From Mycobacteriales bacterium (GTDB taxonomy: Bacteria; Actinomycetota; Actinomycetes; JAFAQI01), in assembly GCA_036267755.1 (NCBI GenBank), contig DATAVK010000056.1, positions 1,989 to 65,988 on the forward strand: a DNA stretch of 64,000 nt, read 5' to 3'. The translations under genes were made by a program, and so were the position numbers. Shown here one piece after another: positions 52,031-57,520 of the stretch. Positions within the stretch are counted from its first letter, which is position 1; every line of letters begins with the position of its first letter. Under the pieces are notes generated by a model, which was given only the letters and a program-made list of their open reading frames with translations, did not search any database and was not told the DNA's origin.

Positions 52031-52630
52031 GTGACGAACGTGTCTGTGGATCTGTCCACACCGACCGACCTGCCGCCGGCCTTTCGGTCGGCCCTGGACG
52101 GCCTGGCGGCGGTCGAGCTGCGACCGGAGCTCGTAGTCCGCGAGCTGCCGGCGCCGCAGCGTCTCGCGCCGTTCGCCGTCGCGCTGCACGCTGCCGCCGT
52201 GGTCGGCGACGAGGAGCTCGCGGAGGGCCGGCTGGTCCTGCTCCACGATCCCGACGGGCAGGACGTGTGGGCCGGGGACACCCGCTGCGTGGCCTACATC
52301 CAGGCCGACGTCGAGGTCGAGATGGCGAACGATCCGATGCTGCTCGGGGTCGGGTGGGCCTGGCTGACCGAAGCGCTGCAGAGCGCAGAGGCGCAGTACG
52401 CCGCCGAAGGCGGCACGGTGACTCGGACCACGTCGGAGCGGTTCGGGGCGCTCACCGACCACCCGGTCTCCTGTGACATCGAGATCCGCGCGTCCTGGTC
52501 ACCGATCGGTGACCTCGGCCCTCACATGGTCGCGTTCGGCGAGGTGCTGTGCGTGGCTGCCGGCCTGCCGCCGATGCCGCCTGGCGTCGTGCCGATCCCG
52601 TCCCGTCGGCTCAGCCGGCGGGTTCGCTGA
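52031..52630 (+). CDS. DUF3000 domain protein (Rv2680-like)
   Basis: Starts at GTG 52031 (VTNVSVDLSTPTDLPPAFRSAL...). The pattern ELPAPQRLAPFAVAL...GRLVLLHDPDGQ..W is typical of the family. An alternative GTG lies at 52040. Confidence 0.75.
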   Translation: MTNVSVDLSTPTDLPPAFRSALDGLAAVELRPELVVRELPAPQRLAPFAVALHAAAVVGDEELAEGRLVLLHDPDGQDVWAGDTRCVAYIQADVEVEMANDPMLLGVGWAWLTEALQSAEAQYAAEGGTVTRTTSERFGALTDHPVSCDIEIRASWSPIGDLGPHMVAFGEVLCVAAGLPPMPPGVVPIPSRRLSRRVR

Positions 52631-53621
52631 CCGGAGCGCTGAGATGCCCGGCCAATACCCCGGCCGGTGGGACCGACATCCGCGGTAGCCGCAAGGTCAG
52701 CGTCGTACCCCCGAGCCGCCAGGCGGCCACCTCGAGCGAGCCACCGGCGAGCCGCGCCCGTTCCCGGAGCAACCCGAGACCGACGTGCCGGCCGCCCTCC
52801 GACCGTACGGCGAGCGGGTCGAAGCCCACCCCATCGTCGGAGACCACGGCGATCACGTCTTCGGAGTCGACCCGCAGCGTCGCGCTCGCCACGTCGACGT
52901 CGGCGTGCTTCACGACGTTGAGCATGGCCTCCTGGAAAAACCGGTAGACCGTCACCGCGGTGACGAGCGGGAGCGGGTAGGGGTCGGTCGGCCAGCCGAG
53001 CCGGACCTCCAGCCCGTAGCGGTTGCGCAGGTCGTCGCGCAACGCCGACACCGCAGCCGCGAGGTCACCGTCGCGCAGCGCGGGCGGCCGGGTCCGGGCC
53101 ATGACGGCGCGCACCTGTTCCTCTGCCTCGGCGATGAGCTCGCCGGCACGTGCTGCGGACTCCGCGGTGAAGGTGTCGAGCATCATCCGGGCCGTGTTCA
53201 GTGACTGCGCCACGGTGTCGTGCAGTTCCGCCGCCAACTGCCCCCGCGCGCCTTCTTCGGCTGCGACGAGACCCGACAGCAGTTCGAAGACGCCGGCGCT
53301 GGCATTCTCCGCCGTACGCCGGTGATGCTCGGCGGCGTCGTCGGCCATCCGGACCCGCAGCGCGAGGGCGTCGACGGTCCGGGCCTGGCCGCGGATCCGC
53401 CGCCACAGCCGGGTGGCGACCACGGCGGCCGCGGCGGCCAGCAGACCCAGCACCACGGCGGCAGGCGCTCCGTCGAGGACCACCTGCCAGACCGGTGCGG
53501 TCGTACGGCCGGTGCCGCGCAGCAGCGCCGCCGCGACAGCGAGCACGCAACTGCTCGCCGCCAGCGTCATCAGCACGACGAGCGCGGCGACCGAAGCGGC
53601 CCGGGCCTTTGTCAGTGTCAC
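52611..53621 (-). CDS. Sensor histidine kinase, HisKA_3/NarX-type, intramembrane-sensing architecture
   Basis: The H-box is AAELHDTVAQSL, the N-box is QEAMLNVVKHA, and the G-boxes are DDGVGF and GLGLLRERA. It has two TM helices separated by a very short loop. The start is set at GTG 53621 (GTGA overlap); the track start is 53660. Confidence 0.88.
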   Translation of the reverse strand: MTLTKARAASVAALVVLMTLAASSCVLAVAAALLRGTGRTTAPVWQVVLDGAPAAVVLGLLAAAAAVVATRLWRRIRGQARTVDALALRVRMADDAAEHHRRTAENASAGVFELLSGLVAAEEGARGQLAAELHDTVAQSLNTARMMLDTFTAESAARAGELIAEAEEQVRAVMARTRPPALRDGDLAAAVSALRDDLRNRYGLEVRLGWPTDPYPLPLVTAVTVYRFFQEAMLNVVKHADVDVASATLRVDSEDVIAVVSDDGVGFDPLAVRSEGGRHVGLGLLRERARLAGGSLEVAAWRLGGTTLTLRLPRMSVPPAGVLAGHLSAPVSEPAG

Positions 53622-55027
53622 GACGACAGGACTCCGGTTGTCGTCCAGTCGGTGGCCCACCAGGTGCTCGTCTCCTGCGCACCGGTCGGCGCGTGGCGGC
53701 CGAGGTCAGGCTCCGCGGCGAGCGCGATCGCGCCGAGCAGCGACGCCACGGCCCGCTCGACGGCGTACAGCTCGTCGACGATCTCGTGGACCGATGCCGG
53801 GCCGTCGGTCGCTGCCAGCCGGGCCAGCCGGTTCGCCGACTCGCGCAGCGTGACGAGCGACGGGGCGGTATCGGCGCCGATGTCACCGAGCGCGCGGGCG
53901 GCGTCCTCGGCGGCCTCGGCGTGCGCCAGCGCCTCATCCCGCGACGCCGCGAGCTCGGCGATCGACAACCAGGACTCTGCCTGCTGCTTGAGGACGTCGG
54001 CCAGCTGCGCCTCGCGACGGCCGAAGCCCACCGAGCCGGTCGCTCGCCGAGCAACCAGGACCGCCAGCGGCTCATCGGATCGCCCGAGCACTGTCGAGAT
54101 CCACGGCTGGCCGTTGTCAGTCCCGACCGCGACGCCGTCGCCGCCGAGCGCTCGAAGCACCCAGGGCGTGTCCAGCGCCTCGCGTTCGACCCGCCGCCGG
54201 GTCAGGCCATGGCCGTCCCCGCCGTAGTGGACCGGGCCATCCCCGGCCATCAGCACCATCTCGACGTCGTCGCTGCCGAACAGCCGGGCGGCGGCAGTCA
54301 GCACGACCTGGGCGGAGACGTCCACTGACCGGCCGCTGGCGCGCTCCTGCAGCCGGGCCAGCTCGGCGTAGAGCTGGGCCTCGGCGGCCCGGGAGGTCTG
54401 CTCGTCGTAGGAGATCCAGAGCAGCAGCAGCGGGACGACCAACGCCAGCAATCCGATGGGCGCGTTCGTCGCGAGCCATGCCGCGAGGATGCCCAGGCCC
54501 GAGGTGCCGAAGGAGTTCACGGCGGCGAGCGGCGCGCTGGCCCACAGCAGCGCCAGCAGCCGCTGGTTGGTCATGATCGACACCGCCTGCGCGATGAGCA
54601 GGTTGTTGGCGAGCCAGAACACGCCCATGCCGCCAACGGCGCCCCAGATGCCGCCACCGACCAGGCTGGCGAAGCCGGCGCCGAGCGCGGTTGCGGCCGC
54701 GAACTGGGCGACGTTGAACTGCAGCTTGAGCGGCTCCTGCCGGCGGATCAGCTGGGCGGCAGTCACGCCGACCGCGACCGACGCGATCGACCAGGCGTAC
54801 GGCGAGTGCACGAAGGCGATGGCGATCGCCGCTTCGGTCAGGCTGAACGTCCAGCGCTGGCGACCGAAGGAGAGGTGGACGACCGCGACCTCGGTGATGA
54901 CGACCGCCGCGACGAGCAGGGGTACGGCGTACCAGGCGGGTGAGTGCCAGCCGATGCACGCGCCGATGATGACGGCAGCCGCCGCGGCCACCGCCCCAAT
55001 CAGTCGGATCTTCAGGGGCGAACTCAT
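53618..55027 (-). CDS. Polytopic membrane protein with cytoplasmic GAF-like domain and helical tail; no recognisable output domain
   Basis: 469 aa. The first roughly 210 aa hold 6-7 TM helices. A GAF-like segment follows (VLTAAARLFGSDDVEMVLMAG...PLAVLVARRATGSVGFGRREAQLADVLKQQAESWL), then an Ala-rich helical C-terminus. It has an ATGA overlap with the upstream S8 gene. Confidence 0.7.
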   Translation of the reverse strand: MSSPLKIRLIGAVAAAAAVIIGACIGWHSPAWYAVPLLVAAVVITEVAVVHLSFGRQRWTFSLTEAAIAIAFVHSPYAWSIASVAVGVTAAQLIRRQEPLKLQFNVAQFAAATALGAGFASLVGGGIWGAVGGMGVFWLANNLLIAQAVSIMTNQRLLALLWASAPLAAVNSFGTSGLGILAAWLATNAPIGLLALVVPLLLLWISYDEQTSRAAEAQLYAELARLQERASGRSVDVSAQVVLTAAARLFGSDDVEMVLMAGDGPVHYGGDGHGLTRRRVEREALDTPWVLRALGGDGVAVGTDNGQPWISTVLGRSDEPLAVLVARRATGSVGFGRREAQLADVLKQQAESWLSIAELAASRDEALAHAEAAEDAARALGDIGADTAPSLVTLRESANRLARLAATDGPASVHEIVDELYAVERAVASLLGAIALAAEPDLGRHAPTGAQETSTWWATDWTTTGVLSS

Positions 55028-56583
55028 CCGCCGTCACCCCAGCTCTCGGCGGACCAGGAGCTAGCAGACCACGAGGACGCCGACCATGACGAGGCCGACC
55101 ACGAGCTGGCGGACCACGACGACGCGGACCACGAGGACGCGGACCACGAGCTGGCACTCCACGACGAGGCGGACCACGACGACGCGAGCAGCTGGACCCA
55201 GGAGCCGCCGAGCCAGGAGTGCGCCTGCCAGCGCGCGGCGTCGAACTGTGCCTCACCGGTCGGGTCGGACCGGACGTTGACGCCGCTGGCGTTCTGCCAG
55301 CCGCAGCGGCCACTGTCGCCGCGCGACCCGCGGGAGTCGCCGGCGGTCACGGACCCGGCGCCGGAGCCCCAGCTGCACAGCGGGCTGGCGGAGGTCCGCA
55401 GCCCGGTCTTCACCTGAATCGGACTGGCGCCGGGGTGCTTCGACAGGTACGCCGCGGCCACGCCGCTGGCGACGGCGGTCGCCTCGCTGGTGCCCGAGCC
55501 GACGAACAGGCCGTCTCGGGTCCACGCGGAGGGGTTCTGCTGCGCGATCAGGCTGTGGGGGTCCGTTTCGCCGAGCACGTGCGCGCCGGGGGCCACGACG
55601 TCCGGCTTGACGACGCCGTCGACCAGGCCGCGGCCGGAGAACGACGCGACCGTGGGGTGTGAGCCGCTGAGGTCGCTGGCGCCCACCGTGAGCGACTGCG
55701 GGTCGTCACCCGGGTCGCCGACCTGATCCGAGTTGTTGCCGGCCGACGCGACCACGAGAACACCCGCAGCCCGGACGTGCTCGATGCCTGCGCTGAGCGG
55801 GTCGGCGCCGTACCAGGGCCCGGTCGGGCGCTGGATCGCGAGCGACAGGTTGACGATCTGGATGCCGCGCGCGTGCACGGCGACCCAGTCGAGGCCGGCC
55901 AAGACCTCGGAGAGGCTGGTCACGCCCGCGCCGTTCGCCACCTTGACGACGACGACGTGAGCGGCGGGGGCGATGCCGAGCGCACGCGATCCGCTGCCGG
56001 GGACGACGCCGCCCGCGATCAGCGAGGCCATCATCGTGCCGTGGCCGTAGCCGTCGGTGAACCGTCCCGAGGTGAGCGCGGGACCGCCGGCCGCCAGCTG
56101 GGACACGTCCACGCCGTCGACGAGGCGGCCCGACGCCCGGTTGAGTGCGGGGGTGTCACTGACGCCGGTATCGAGGAGCGCGACCGTGACGCCGGAGCCG
56201 GTTCCCGGCTGGCCGGCGGAGCCACCCACCGCGTCAGCAGCGAGCACGTGATCATCGGAGCGATCGGAGCGGTCACGCCAGCCGGTCACATGGCCGGTCG
56301 CGTCCGGAGCGATCCCGGCGACCCGAGGGTCACGCGACAGCGTGGCGTACGACGAAGCGGGGGCGGTGACGACCTCCGCGTCGACCGCGCGAAGCACCTG
56401 GAGGACCCGGCCCCCGGGTACTCGAAGCGGCAGGTCAGCCGCGGAACGAACACTCACGACCGCGCGAACCTCCGGGCCACGTGGAGCGGCAACGGCCGTT
56501 CCGGTGGCGGCGGTCCCAGCCAACGCTGCAGACGCGGTGAGGACGGCCATGACCGACACGATGGCGGCGCGACGACGCGGCAC
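55024..56583 (-). CDS. Secreted S8 (subtilisin-family) serine peptidase with C-terminal (SSWSA)x9 repeat
   Basis: 519 aa with a signal peptide. The catalytic residues are D (VALLDTGVS), H (GHGTMMASL) and S (GSGTSEATAVASG). The C-terminus consists of W-spaced pentapeptides. Confidence 0.9.
   Translation of the reverse strand: MPRRRAAIVSVMAVLTASAALAGTAATGTAVAAPRGPEVRAVVSVRSAADLPLRVPGGRVLQVLRAVDAEVVTAPASSYATLSRDPRVAGIAPDATGHVTGWRDRSDRSDDHVLAADAVGGSAGQPGTGSGVTVALLDTGVSDTPALNRASGRLVDGVDVSQLAAGGPALTSGRFTDGYGHGTMMASLIAGGVVPGSGSRALGIAPAAHVVVVKVANGAGVTSLSEVLAGLDWVAVHARGIQIVNLSLAIQRPTGPWYGADPLSAGIEHVRAAGVLVVASAGNNSDQVGDPGDDPQSLTVGASDLSGSHPTVASFSGRGLVDGVVKPDVVAPGAHVLGETDPHSLIAQQNPSAWTRDGLFVGSGTSEATAVASGVAAAYLSKHPGASPIQVKTGLRTSASPLCSWGSGAGSVTAGDSRGSRGDSGRCGWQNASGVNVRSDPTGEAQFDAARWQAHSWLGGSWVQLLASSWSASSWSASSWSASSWSASSWSASSWSASSWSASSWSASSWSAESWGDGG
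55048..55182 (-). repeat. Nine in-frame 15-nt tandem units encoding SSWSA
   Basis: The units are identical at the peptide level but vary at synonymous positions. All six Ser codons and three Ala codons occur. Degenerate copies flank the block (ARWQAHSWLGGSW..., ESWGDGG). Confidence 0.95.
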
Positions 56584-56705
56584 GCGGTCTCCCTATGTCT
56601 TGGGCCTGAGGCGACCCACACCCTTCTTCGGCACGTCAGCACCGCGACTTTGCTGGCAAACGGCTCATTAACCCGTTCGGAGTAATGGCCGCTAGGCCGG
56701 ATGCC

Positions 56706-56736
56706 GATGGGCTGGACGGACCAACCAGATGGGCTG
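56706..56736. promoter_or_regulatory. Direct repeat GATGGGCTG (x2, 22-bp period) in the divergent S8/response-regulator control region
   Basis: Exact 9-mers lie at 56706-56714 and 56728-56736, inside the 256-bp intergenic region (56584-56839). This is a candidate regulator binding site. The function is inferred only. Confidence 0.3.
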
Positions 56737-56839
56737 TCGGGCTACAGGAGACGGGCGCTCCGGCCGACACAGTGACTAGGCACCTGCTCCCCGGTGCCCC
56801 ACCGGCCGAAGTGCCGGTTTCTTTAGTCCAGGAGGAACG

Positions 56840-57520
56840 GTGTCCGCACTCGCCGAGCAGACCGCGACGTCGGTCCCCGCTCCCGGGCCAGGCTTCACCG
56901 CCATGGTCGTCGACGACCACCCGTTGGTGCGCGAGTCCATGGTCGCCCGCCTCACCGCGATGGGCGCCCGTGACGTGGCCGAGGCCGCCAGCGTTGCCGA
57001 GGCCCGTGCTCGTGCCCACTCCGGTGGGATCCGCGACCTGTGCGTGCTCGATGTCGGACTCCCGGACGGCTCCGGGCTCGACCTGCTGGGCGACCTGCGC
57101 GCCACCGGCTGGCCCCGCCTCGTCGTGCTCTCGGCGGCCGATGACCCCTACTCCGTCCGCGCGGCCTTCGTTGCCGGCGCGCAGGGCTACCTGCTGAAGT
57201 CCGCCTCACCCCTGGTCGTCGCCGATGGCGTCCGGCGGGTCCTCGACGGCGGCGTATACGCCGATCCGTCCGTCGCCTCCCTGCTCGCCGCCGGCCTGCG
57301 TGGCGGCCCCCAGCAAGACGGCGTCGCGGAGCTGTCCGGCCGCGAGATCGAGGTCCTGCACCTCGTCGCCGACGGTCGCTCCAACAAGGAGATCGGCGAG
57401 ACCCTCGGGCTCTCGGCGCTCACCGTGAAGAGCCACCTGGCTCGGATCGCCCGCAAGCTCGGCACCGGGGATCGCGCCGAAATGGTCGCCATGGCCATGC
57501 GCGCCGGCGTCATCCGCTGA
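56840..57520 (+). CDS. NarL/LuxR-family two-component response regulator
   Basis: GTG 56840 is preceded by AGGAGG. The receiver domain (VVDDHPLVRE.., phospho-acceptor in VLDVGLPDGSG) is followed by a GerE HTH (LSGREIEVLHLVADGRSNKEIGETLGLSALTVKSHLARI). Confidence 0.93.
   Translation: MSALAEQTATSVPAPGPGFTAMVVDDHPLVRESMVARLTAMGARDVAEAASVAEARARAHSGGIRDLCVLDVGLPDGSGLDLLGDLRATGWPRLVVLSAADDPYSVRAAFVAGAQGYLLKSASPLVVADGVRRVLDGGVYADPSVASLLAAGLRGGPQQDGVAELSGREIEVLHLVADGRSNKEIGETLGLSALTVKSHLARIARKLGTGDRAEMVAMAMRAGVIR

What the first reader, a model, noticed from the sequence alone, without database searches (positions are those of the whole stretch)
55048..55182. (SSWSA)x9 tryptophan pentapeptide repeat at the C-terminus of the S8 peptidase, maintained at the protein level
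Nine consecutive 15-nt units encode exactly SSWSA. The DNA copies differ at synonymous sites: Ser is encoded by TCC, AGC, TCT, TCG, TCA and AGT, and Ala by GCC, GCT and GCG. The periodicity therefore appears to be selected in the peptide and is not a recent slippage product. The W-every-5-residues spacing continues in degenerate form on both sides (AARWQAHSWLGGSWVQLLA upstream, ESWGDGG downstream). Two functions are possible, and both are speculative. One is a cell-envelope or glycan anchoring module, by analogy with aromatic-repeat wall-binding domains. The other is a self-processed source of short Trp-containing peptides feeding the adjacent sensor.
Basis: seen in the sequence. Interest (0 to 1): 0.6.

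Follow-up and report, generated by a model that had tools for sequence, protein, structure and literature searches.

The report
Tryptophan-pentad tail on sensor-linked subtilase
A secreted subtilisin-type protease ends in nine identical Ser-Ser-Trp-Ser-Ala units that selection keeps constant; this undescribed tail occurs on hundreds of related proteases whose genes usually sit directly upstream of a MASE9-like membrane sensor gene, so it is probably part of an unstudied protease-to-sensor signalling link.

Summary
The minus-strand S8 gene (55024-56583, 519 aa) ends in nine exact SSWSA units (55048-55182) plus ESWGDGG. All codon differences between units are synonymous. The TCN/AGY serine pattern sits at the same positions in a congener with 90% identity, so the array is old and stable.

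The tail is the best-conserved part of the protein. It has no match in Pfam, NCBIfam, PDB sequences or the searched literature. AlphaFold2 gives only low-confidence coil.

W-x4 tails with lineage-specific units (ATWSA, GNSWS, GGSWY and others) occur on hundreds of S8 peptidases in several phyla. In about 80-100% of loci the next gene encodes a distant MASE9-like membrane domain. Here that is a 469-aa membrane protein followed by a histidine kinase, with a divergent NarL-type regulator. In paralogues the domain is fused to GAF-GGDEF-EAL.

Protease and sensor domains co-diverge (r=0.77; 0/5000 within-genome shuffles reach it), and paralogues within one genome carry different units.

Best reading (about 0.45): the tail is the extracytoplasmic element that couples the protease to its cognate sensor. 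Whether it acts as a tethered ligand or as clipped-off pentapeptides is unresolved. This is an undescribed module whose function is inferred only.

The parts
55024..56583 (-). S8 (subtilase) gene, 519 aa. GTG start preceded by GGGAG. The N-terminal region looks like a signal peptide (RRR followed by a hydrophobic stretch and AVAAP).
   Evidence: ORF. PF00082 E=1.4e-37 over residues 129-429. D138, H181, N283 and S366 are invariant in the 45-sequence alignment, and the same columns are intact in about 250 tail-bearing S8 proteins. RBS seen. The signal peptide is my reading of the sequence; no predictor was run.
55297..56199 (-). Catalytic subtilase domain (residues 129-429)
   Evidence: pLDDT mostly 85-98. 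Nearest solved structure by sequence is 3afg, a subtilisin-like serine protease, E=1.6e-26.
55267..55356 (-). Poorly conserved Gly/Ser/Arg/Asp-rich linker (residues 410-439)
   Evidence: Mean identity to the query is 49% in close homologues and 20% in distant ones, the least conserved region.
55183..55266 (-). Conserved pre-repeat segment DPTGEAQFDAARWQAHSWLGGSWVQLLA (residues 440-467). It holds three Trp spaced by 5, offset by 3 from the main array.
   Evidence: G443, E444, F447, W452, W457, W462 and L466 are invariant or nearly invariant. AF2 predicts helices 449-454 and 457-470, with pLDDT 84-86 for residues 431-450.
55048..55182 (-). Nine exact SSWSA units (residues 468-512), the finding itself
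   Evidence: AF2 pLDDT is 23-37.
55024..55047 (-). Terminal cap ESWGDGG plus the TGA stop. The stop overlaps the ATG of the next gene (ATGA).
   Evidence: The cap motif x-[GS]-W-G-[DP]-x-x recurs in orthologues.
53618..55027 (-). 469-aa polytopic membrane protein. N-terminal region of about 210 residues is a distant MASE9-like domain. The cytoplasmic part is GAF-like by homology to paralogues. No output domain.
   Evidence: Weak PF20972 MASE9 hit, E=0.007. 11 of 32 family members hit MASE9, best E=8e-6. Homologous N-terminal domains are fused to GAF-GGDEF-EAL downstream of other W-tail S8 genes.
52611..53660 (-). Histidine kinase (HisKA_3 + HATPase_c). As listed, the ORF overlaps the 3' end of the membrane-protein gene; its true start is uncertain.
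56840..57520 (+). Divergently transcribed NarL/LuxR-type response regulator
   Evidence: It is 83-100% identical across about 50 syntenic loci.
56584..56839 (.). 256-bp divergent intergenic region between the S8 operon and the regulator gene. Presumed promoter and autoregulation region.
   Evidence: Coordinates. Its function is inferred only.

Best explanation
The (SSWSA)x9 tail is a selected, probably flexible, Trp-studded extracytoplasmic extension of an active secreted subtilase. I read it as the coupling element between the protease and the MASE9-like membrane sensor encoded by the next, translationally coupled gene. That sensor would then signal through the adjacent histidine kinase to the divergent NarL-type regulator.

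The uniform units would be the cognate ligand of that sensor domain at the membrane surface. They could act while still attached, which would hold the protease on its sensor. Or they could act after the protease domain clips them off after each Trp. I cannot decide between these two modes and rate them roughly equal.

Shown:
- The array is real and under strong purifying selection.
- The protease active site is conserved.
- The protease gene is adjacent to the sensor gene, and the two co-diverge.
- Units are paralogue-specific.

Inferred:
- The protein is exported.
- The tail is disordered.
- The tail physically or chemically contacts the sensor.
- The tail is cleaved.
- The signal passes to the kinase and regulator.
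For: 1. Selection on every unit position.
- There are no non-synonymous differences among the nine units despite about 25% nucleotide divergence.
- Fifteen nucleotide differences from the congener within the 135-nt array are all synonymous, and the AGY codons keep their positions.
- The repeat region is 97% identical in close homologues and 85% in distant ones, against 86% and 70% for the catalytic domain.
- The same pattern of identical peptides on synonymously diverged DNA holds in 41 arrays, mean 2.7 of 15 nt.

2. Link to the sensor.
- In the first locus set, 68 of 74 tail-bearing S8 ORFs have a MASE9-like domain gene starting directly downstream on the same strand. The other six are cut contigs, tandem S8 arrays or a sensor upstream. 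Nineteen S8 genes without a tail have none. This set contains duplicate loci and the tail-less S8s are distant, so the counts are not independent.
- In an independent set of 80 loci, 55 have the sensor directly downstream, 10 have it elsewhere in the locus, and about 12 have none within 4 kb.
- The window's own genome has exactly two W-tail S8 genes and exactly two MASE9-like proteins, paired, both with stop/start overlap.

3. The sensor domain has interchangeable outputs: here a separate HK and RR, elsewhere GAF-GGDEF-EAL. What stays constant is S8 tail plus membrane domain.

4. Co-divergence. S8 catalytic-domain distances correlate with the distances of the adjacent sensor domains, r=0.77. 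Within-genome shuffles of the pairing give a mean of 0.03, and 0 of 5000 reach the observed value.

5. Paralogues within one genome carry different uniform units (SSWSA, GSQWV, GGSWY, GQAWS and others). The unit classes are conserved across genomes. This is expected for specificity determinants.

6. AF2 gives coil with pLDDT below 40 for the tail, both with an alignment and for an 18-unit tail alone. That fits an exposed, extended element.

7. MASE9 is described as a promiscuous membrane sensor with no known ligand, thought to bind its ligand within the membrane (bioRxiv 10.1101/2021.11.05.467447).

8. Compatible with clipping. The catalytic triad is intact in essentially all of about 250 tail-bearing S8 proteins. 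Over 77 distinct units the conserved positions are W and W+2 (A or G in 88%), and W+3 is the most variable. If cleavage follows Trp, these positions are P1, P4 and the solvent-exposed P3 of a subtilase substrate. That mapping uses general knowledge of subtilisin subsites and is an inference.
Against: - There is no direct evidence of contact, cleavage or signalling.
- About 15% of tail-bearing S8 genes in the second set have no MASE9-like gene within 4 kb. The tail can therefore exist without an adjacent sensor.
- Adjacency and co-divergence link the two proteins, not specifically the tail.
- Old paralogues would have different units by drift alone.
- A conserved, distinct terminal cap (WGDxx here, AWDQ or MAAAS in paralogue classes) is not needed for peptide release.
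- Strict uniformity of the units is not obviously needed for a simple tether.
- Low AF2 confidence cannot prove disorder.
- The MASE9 assignment of the window's own protein is below Pfam's threshold (16.7 against 24.3 bits).
Confidence: 0.45

Rival explanations
1. Generic envelope anchor. The Trp-every-fifth tail holds the secreted protease at the cell surface by inserting its Trp side chains into the membrane interface or by stacking on wall polysaccharide. It does this independently of the neighbouring sensor, which merely regulates or monitors the operon.
For: - The tail is at the C-terminus of an exported enzyme with no lipobox or TM anchor.
- Most carriers are Actinomycetota, Chloroflexota and Dormiibacterota (record titles).
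- Some tail-bearing S8 genes have no adjacent sensor.
- Trp is the classic membrane-interface and sugar-stacking residue (general knowledge).
Against: - No wall-binding repeat family matches the tail.
- A generic anchor does not explain why every non-Trp position is held identical in all units, nor why paralogues in one genome keep different unit types across genomes.
- In some S8 proteins the array lies N-terminal to the catalytic domain (P0131, P0147, P0165, P0213).
- With a spacing of 5, Trp side chains do not line up on one face of a beta-strand, alpha-helix or PPII helix (geometry, inference).
Confidence: 0.2
2. Ordered self-associating structure. The repeats form a regular beta-structure (a solenoid or amyloid-like stack) or drive Trp-mediated oligomerisation of the protease, as the Trp-every-fifth WR region does for the eukaryotic factor Nanog.
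For: - The periodicity is strict, the units are uniform, and a small residue (A or G) is conserved at W+2.
- The terminal unit is a distinct cap.
- The Nanog WR, with every fifth residue Trp, mediates dimerisation and higher-order assembly (PMC5446312, PMC9106587).
Against: - AF2 predicts no regular structure with an alignment or for an 18-unit tail alone (pLDDT about 25-40).
- No pentapeptide-repeat Pfam model matches at E up to 1.
- The position that would point inward in an Rfr-type helix (two residues before the aromatic) is the most variable and is often Arg, Lys or His.
- Register breaks occur in some homologues.
Confidence: 0.12
3. C-terminal pro-peptide or decoy substrate. The tail occupies or feeds the enzyme's own active site. 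It delays or tunes protease activity after export and has no signalling role.
For: - The conserved W and A/G positions fit the P1 and P4 subsites, and P3 is variable (inference from subtilisin subsite knowledge).
- The triad is always intact.
- The linker is flexible and the tail is probably disordered.
- C-terminal extensions that are removed during maturation are common in subtilases (general knowledge).
Against: - It does not explain the pairing and co-divergence with the membrane sensor.
- It does not explain the paralogue-specific units.
- Nine to more than thirty identical sites are more than an inhibitor needs.
Confidence: 0.1
4. No function: a neutral low-complexity expansion, or an assembly artefact of a 15-nt repeat.
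For: The DNA is a tandem repeat, and unit number varies between lineages.
Against: - All differences between units are synonymous.
- The same array with positionally conserved codons occurs in an independent genome.
- The tail is the best-conserved region of the protein across more than 100 homologues.
Confidence: 0.01

Closest known systems
Nanog tryptophan repeat (WR) of vertebrates (PMC5446312; PMC9106587)
   Same: A run of pentapeptides with Trp at every fifth residue and small polar residues between, in a largely disordered region. There the Trp residues mediate protein-protein association.
   Different: It is eukaryotic, nuclear and unrelated by descent. Its non-Trp positions vary between units, whereas here all nine units are identical. 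It has no protease and no membrane sensor partner. This is a resemblance of pattern only.
Pentapeptide-repeat proteins (Pfam PF00805 and relatives; Rfr right-handed quadrilateral beta-helix, e.g. Qnr, MfpA)
   Same: Five-residue period with a large hydrophobic central residue and a small residue (G or A) two positions after it.
   Different: No Pfam match. The central residue is Trp, not Leu or Phe. The inward-facing i-2 position is the most variable here. AF2 predicts no helix.
Mycosins (MycP), S8 proteases of type VII secretion systems (PMC5082899; PMC8131196)
   Same: An actinobacterial S8 protease whose C-terminal element ties it to a membrane protein complex. MycP stabilises the ESX membrane complex. 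Mycosin is the best NCBIfam model for this protein (TIGR03921, 108 bits).
   Different: The score is far below the cut-off (278.75). There is no C-terminal transmembrane helix, no ESX genes nearby, and no mycosin structure among the PDB sequence hits at E up to 1e-10.
Exported pheromone pro-peptides cut by extracellular subtilases (Phr/RRNPPA systems of Bacillota, including tandemly duplicated pro-peptides, PMC11343458; PMC3601957)
   Same: Short (penta)peptide signals, sometimes in tandem copies, are released outside the cell by S8-type proteases and read by a cognate, co-evolving receptor encoded next to them.
   Different: Here the repeats are fused to the protease itself. There are 9 or more identical copies with no spacers. 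The candidate receptor is a polytopic membrane domain, not a cytoplasmic TPR receptor. No Opp-type import is implied. Release is unproven.
MASE9 membrane sensor domain (Pfam PF20972; bioRxiv 10.1101/2021.11.05.467447)
   Same: The neighbour's N-terminal polytopic domain gives MASE9 as its only recurrent Pfam match (11 of 32 members). Like MASE9, it is combined with GGDEF-EAL outputs.
   Different: The window's own protein scores below Pfam's threshold. It is a stand-alone protein with a separate kinase. No protease partner is mentioned in the MASE9 passages I read in that paper.

Membership tests
Peptidase S8 (subtilases, PF00082) | Profile match above threshold and a catalytic Asp-His-Ser triad with the oxyanion Asn | tested here: met
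   PF00082 scores 130 bits against a cut-off of 21.8. D138, H181, N283 and S366 are invariant.
Mycosin (TIGR03921) | Score at or above the curated cut-off | tested here: not met
   108.3 bits against 278.75.
Mycosin (TIGR03921) | C-terminal transmembrane anchor and an ESX/type VII gene neighbourhood | tested here: not met
   The C-terminus is (SSWSA)9-ESWGDGG with no hydrophobic helix. The neighbours are a membrane sensor, HK, RR, DUF3000 and RNase D.
Pentapeptide-repeat proteins (PF00805, PF13599, PF13576) | Profile match | tested here: not met
   No family matches the 80-aa tail at E up to 1.
Pentapeptide-repeat proteins (Rfr fold) | Conserved small inward-facing residue at i-2 and Leu/Phe at i; predicted beta-helix | tested here: not met
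   The i-2 position (W+3) is the most variable, 3.28 bits of entropy, with Arg frequent. AF2 predicts coil with pLDDT below 40. The AF2 part is weak evidence.
Aromatic cell-wall-binding repeats (CW_binding_1, GW, WxL, SLH, LysM, LGFP) | Profile match to any of these Pfam families | tested here: not met
   No Pfam hit in the tail in the full-length scan or the tail-only scan. No NCBIfam hit.
Cyanobactin PatA/PatG proteases with multi-core precursors (TIGR03895) | Score at or above the cut-off | tested here: not met
   29.7 bits against 421.
Phr/RRNPPA peptide signalling | Small separate exported pro-peptide gene next to a cytoplasmic TPR-type receptor | tested here: not met
   No such genes flank the S8 gene. 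A six-frame scan of the whole genome for Trp spaced by 5 four or more times found no small ORF carrying the unit.
MASE9 (PF20972), for the neighbouring membrane protein | Profile match at or above the gathering score; polytopic domain combined with varied signalling outputs | tested here: inconclusive
   The window's protein scores 16.7 bits against 24.3. 11 of 32 family members match, best E=8e-6, and no other family recurs. Outputs vary: HK/RR here, GAF-GGDEF-EAL elsewhere.
Nanog-type tryptophan repeat | Trp at every fifth residue over 8 or more units | tested here: met
   Ten Trp in register, W470 to W515. This is a pattern criterion only; common descent is not implied and function is not testable here.

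The most novel reading that the evidence does not exclude
The protease carries its own multi-copy signal precursor. After export the subtilase domain cuts the tail, its own or a neighbour's, after each Trp. Each enzyme molecule would then release nine identical pentapeptides specific to its lineage and paralogue. These peptides partition to the membrane surface and are read by the cognate MASE9-like sensor, which here drives the HK and NarL-type regulator and in paralogues drives c-di-GMP turnover. This would be an enzyme-fused peptide signalling system that reports active extracellular protease. It would also give the first ligand class for MASE9-type sensors.
Probability: 0.2. Interest if true: 0.85.

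Novelty: new variant of a known kind. Interest (0 to 1): 0.65.

Why it matters
Subtilases and two-component or c-di-GMP sensors are both well known. A Trp-every-fifth tail held identical unit by unit is not. It occurs on hundreds of soil-bacterial proteases and is inherited together with a MASE9-like membrane sensor. I found no description of it in Pfam, NCBIfam, PDB sequences or the searched literature.

If the tail is the sensor's input, it gives a concrete and testable ligand hypothesis for a family of membrane sensor domains with no known signal. It would also reveal a widespread way for Actinomycetota, Chloroflexota and related phyla to couple extracellular proteolysis to gene regulation and c-di-GMP.

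At minimum the module deserves a family definition, so that these genes stop being annotated only as 'S8 family peptidase' or 'AprX'.

Tried and rejected
- **Pfam, NCBIfam and PDB sequence searches of the tail alone**. Nothing was found. The only PDB hit was a non-significant match to the DotG/IcmE repeats (E=0.34).
- **Literature full-text searches.** I searched for the motif strings SSWSA, WSASSWSA, WSGNSWSG and others, and for keyword combinations. No relevant paper turned up.
- **Pentapeptide-repeat (Rfr) beta-helix.** Rejected for lack of a profile match, the variable i-2 position, and AF2 coil.
- **AF2.** Both the alignment-based full-length run and the single-sequence run on an 18-unit tail gave low confidence for the repeats. 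No fold search on the tail was therefore meaningful.
- **Inactive-protease lineages.** I looked for lineages that keep the tail but have lost the triad, which would have argued against self-cleavage. None were found; the triad is intact in essentially all.
- **Small ORFs ending in the same unit.** Earlier notes report these in other genomes. None occur in this genome.
- **Loci without a detected sensor.** I tried to identify the downstream gene from stop-to-stop ORFs. The result was inconclusive in this high-GC DNA.
- **Mycosin membership.** Rejected.
Full report
**1. Observation**

The minus-strand ORF 55024-56583 encodes a 519-aa protein. Its last 52 residues read (SSWSA)x9-ESWGDGG. The nine 15-nt units occupy exactly 55048-55182.

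Six Ser codons and three Ala codons are used, and eight of the nine units differ at the DNA level. The mean pairwise difference is about 4 of 15 nt, and none changes an amino acid.

Tandem Repeats Finder finds period 15 at 73% match and a better period 45 at 84% match. Units 3, 6 and 9 all start with AGC. The array was therefore built by triplicating a 3-unit block and has since diverged only synonymously.

In a congener (L002/L021, 90% protein identity) the array again has nine units. There are 15 nucleotide differences, all synonymous, and the AGY codons sit at the same unit positions. The array is thus older than the split of the two species and is not being homogenised.

One detail needs correcting. 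The Trp in ESWGDGG is in register with the array. The three upstream Trp (W452, W457, W462) are offset by 3 residues.

The plus-strand ORF 54944-55417, with its DHEDA-type repeats, is the antisense shadow of the array.

**2. The protein**

- Pfam places a subtilase domain at residues 129-429 (E=1.4e-37).
- D138, H181, N283 and S366 are invariant in a 45-sequence alignment.
- The N-terminus looks like a signal peptide. This is my reading of the sequence; no predictor was run.
- GGGAG precedes the GTG start.
- The best NCBIfam model is mycosin, but at 108 bits against a cut-off of 279.
- The closest solved structure by sequence is 3afg, a subtilisin-like serine protease.

AlphaFold2 with the alignment models the pro-domain and catalytic domain confidently. 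It gives moderate confidence to the conserved segment 431-467, predicting two short helices. It gives pLDDT 23-37 for the repeats. An 18-unit SSWSA tail from an orthologue, folded alone, is also predicted as coil with pLDDT about 38.

**3. The tail is a conserved module, not a local oddity**

All 120 best homologues, down to 53% identity, end in the same kind of array. Within the orthologous group the unit is SSWSA, ATWSA, VSWSA, MSWSA, NSWSA, KSWSA, RNWTA, SRSWL, TRSWS, ASTWG or SNGWG, depending on lineage.

A search of 1.84 billion cluster representatives with the 80-aa tail alone returned 134 representatives. Most are S8 peptidases with 5 to more than 30 units of many kinds. A few have the array N-terminal to the catalytic domain.

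Over 281 S8 proteins there are 77 distinct consensus units:
- Trp is fixed.
- W+2 is Ala or Gly in 88%.
- W+1 and W+4 are mostly small polar residues.
- W+3 is the most variable position.

The repeat region is the best-conserved part of the protein. It is 97% identical in close homologues and 85% in distant ones, against 86% and 70% for the catalytic domain and 49% and 20% for the linker.

In 41 arrays from other loci, units with identical peptide sequence differ on average at 2.7 of 15 nt. A few arrays are nearly identical at the DNA level, which points to recent expansion.

No Pfam, NCBIfam or PDB sequence matches the tail. Full-text searches for the motif strings found nothing relevant.

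**4. Genomic context**

In about 50 loci from uncultured Frankiaceae, Acidothermaceae and other Mycobacteriales, the gene order is conserved even where the S8 protein is only 40% identical. The order is RNase D, divergent NarL-type regulator, S8, 469-aa membrane protein, HisKA_3 kinase, DUF3000.

The S8 stop overlaps the start of the membrane-protein gene (ATGA).

A profile of that membrane protein finds its N-terminal polytopic domain directly downstream of the more distant W-tail S8 paralogues. These include loci whose records are labelled Chloroflexota and Methylomirabilota. There the domain is fused to GAF-GGDEF-EAL.

The only recurrent Pfam match of this domain is MASE9: 11 of 32 members, best E=8e-6. 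The window's own protein is sub-threshold at 16.7 bits. MASE9 is described as a promiscuous membrane sensor with no known ligand (bioRxiv 10.1101/2021.11.05.467447).

Counts:
- **Set 1.** 68 of 74 tail-bearing S8 ORFs have the sensor domain starting directly downstream. The remaining six are cut contigs, tandem S8 genes before one sensor, or a sensor upstream. Nineteen S8 genes without a tail have none. Two apparent exceptions are frameshifted assemblies whose tail lies in another frame. This set contains duplicate loci, and the tail-less S8s are phylogenetically distant.
- **Set 2.** These 80 loci were found with a profile of the GGDEF-type paralogues and include cultured Geodermatophilus, Blastococcus, Virgisporangium and Actinoplanes. 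Of them, 55 have the sensor directly downstream, 10 have it elsewhere in the locus, and about 12 have none within 4 kb.
- **The window's own genome.** This assembly is about 80% complete. It has exactly two W-tail S8 genes and two MASE9-like proteins, paired, both with overlapping stop and start.

**5. Coupling and specificity**

I compared 18 S8-sensor pairs from five related genomes. Pairwise distances of the catalytic domains correlate with those of the adjacent sensor domains (r=0.77). Shuffling the pairing within genomes gives a mean of 0.03, and 0 of 5000 shuffles reach the observed value. The pairs have therefore duplicated and diverged as units.

Paralogues within one genome have different, internally uniform units. 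One genome, for example, carries SSWSA, GSQWV, GGSWY, GQAWS and D(V/A)(V/T)WS. The unit classes, including their distinct terminal caps, recur across genomes.

The catalytic triad is intact in essentially all of about 250 tail-bearing S8 proteins.

**6. Interpretation**

What is shown:
- The array is real, old, and under purifying selection at every position.
- It marks a large subfamily of active secreted subtilases.
- Its gene is usually translationally coupled to, and co-diverges with, a MASE9-like membrane sensor.
- That sensor has different outputs in different paralogues.

What I infer is that the tail is the element through which protease and sensor communicate at the outer face of the membrane (about 0.45). 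Two modes fit.

- **Tethered ligand or dock.** This is comparable in logic to the C-terminal anchor that ties mycosins to the ESX membrane complex (PMC5082899).
- **Clipping after each Trp.** This would yield identical pentapeptides, comparable in logic to tandemly duplicated pheromone pro-peptides cut by extracellular proteases (PMC11343458).

The clipping mode fits several facts:
- The units are strictly uniform.
- The units are paralogue-specific.
- The active site is always intact.
- W and the A/G residue fall at P1 and P4 of a subtilase substrate, while the variable residue falls at solvent-exposed P3 (my inference and general knowledge).

The tether mode fits the conserved terminal cap and the translational coupling. 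I cannot separate the two with the tools available.

Rivals:
- A generic envelope anchor (0.2). Orphan tail-bearing S8 genes favour it. Uniform units and paralogue specificity count against it.
- Ordered self-association of the Nanog-WR kind, or a solenoid (0.12). AF2 and the variable i-2 position count against it.
- A C-terminal pro-peptide or decoy substrate (0.1). It does not explain the sensor coupling.
- A neutral or artefactual repeat (0.01). Effectively refuted.

**7. Comparison with known families, and novelty**

The protein is a member of Peptidase S8. It is not a mycosin, not a cyanobactin protease and not a pentapeptide-repeat protein, and its tail matches no wall-binding repeat family (see the membership table).

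The only known sequence pattern like the tail is the vertebrate Nanog tryptophan repeat (PMC5446312). That repeat is unrelated by descent and is not uniform between units.

I rate the finding as a new variant of a known kind: a secreted subtilase within a signalling operon that carries an undescribed repeat module and an undescribed protease-sensor pairing.

Earlier notes from this scan had flagged the same kind of tail and its sensor neighbour in other genomes. I treated them as leads and re-tested adjacency, MASE9 similarity and selection here.

**8. Limits**

- Locus sets overlap and are phylogenetically structured, so the association counts are descriptive rather than independent trials.
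- The start of the kinase gene is uncertain.

Noticed in passing
window 55048-55182: The array has a 45-nt (3-unit) superperiod at 84% match, and units 3, 6 and 9 all begin with AGC. This points to an ancient triplication of a 3-unit block followed by synonymous divergence only.
   Followed up: yes
window 55024-55027 and 53618-53660: The S8 stop overlaps the ATG of the membrane-protein gene (ATGA). The listed kinase ORF overlaps the 3' end of the membrane-protein gene by 43 nt, so the three genes look translationally coupled. The true kinase start was not determined.
   Followed up: partly
own genome, contig C139:14557-18749: A second W-tail S8 is present. Its tail is heterogeneous, ending ...SHSWSSHSWSGSSW. 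Its TGA stop overlaps the GTG start of an 826-aa MASE9-like protein that contains GGDEF and EAL motifs. These are the only other W-tail S8 and MASE9-like genes in this assembly.
   Followed up: partly
L126 (uncultured Acidimicrobiaceae), L077, L078: Two or three W-tail S8 genes stand in tandem upstream of a single MASE9-like sensor gene.
   Followed up: no
P0131, P0147, P0165, P0213, P0161: In some S8 peptidases the Trp-pentad array (WDASQ or WDAST units) lies N-terminal to the catalytic domain instead of at the C-terminus.
   Followed up: no
L182, L187, L189, L194, L195: One paralogue class has units with two adjacent aromatic residues (GGSWY, GGSWF, GSNWY). It has an interrupting QP(T/D)S..DYG segment and a conserved GAWDQ end that recurs across five genomes.
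   Followed up: no
P0127: A 1154-aa protein with a GPS motif and a secretin-family 7TM domain (an adhesion-GPCR-like architecture, presumably eukaryotic) carries 93 consecutive WNGQV-type units. This is probably a convergent Trp-every-fifth array.
   Followed up: no
window 54944-55417 (+): The 157-aa plus-strand ORF with DHEDADHDEADHELA repeats is the antisense reading of the SSWSA array and is not a gene.
   Followed up: yes
L101, L117, L122, L124, L127, L128, L139, L151, L167, L169, L172: These W-tail S8 genes have no detectable MASE9-like gene within 4 kb, including those in cultured Virgisporangium ochraceum and an Actinoplanes sp. What lies downstream could not be read reliably from stop-to-stop ORFs.
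   Followed up: partly
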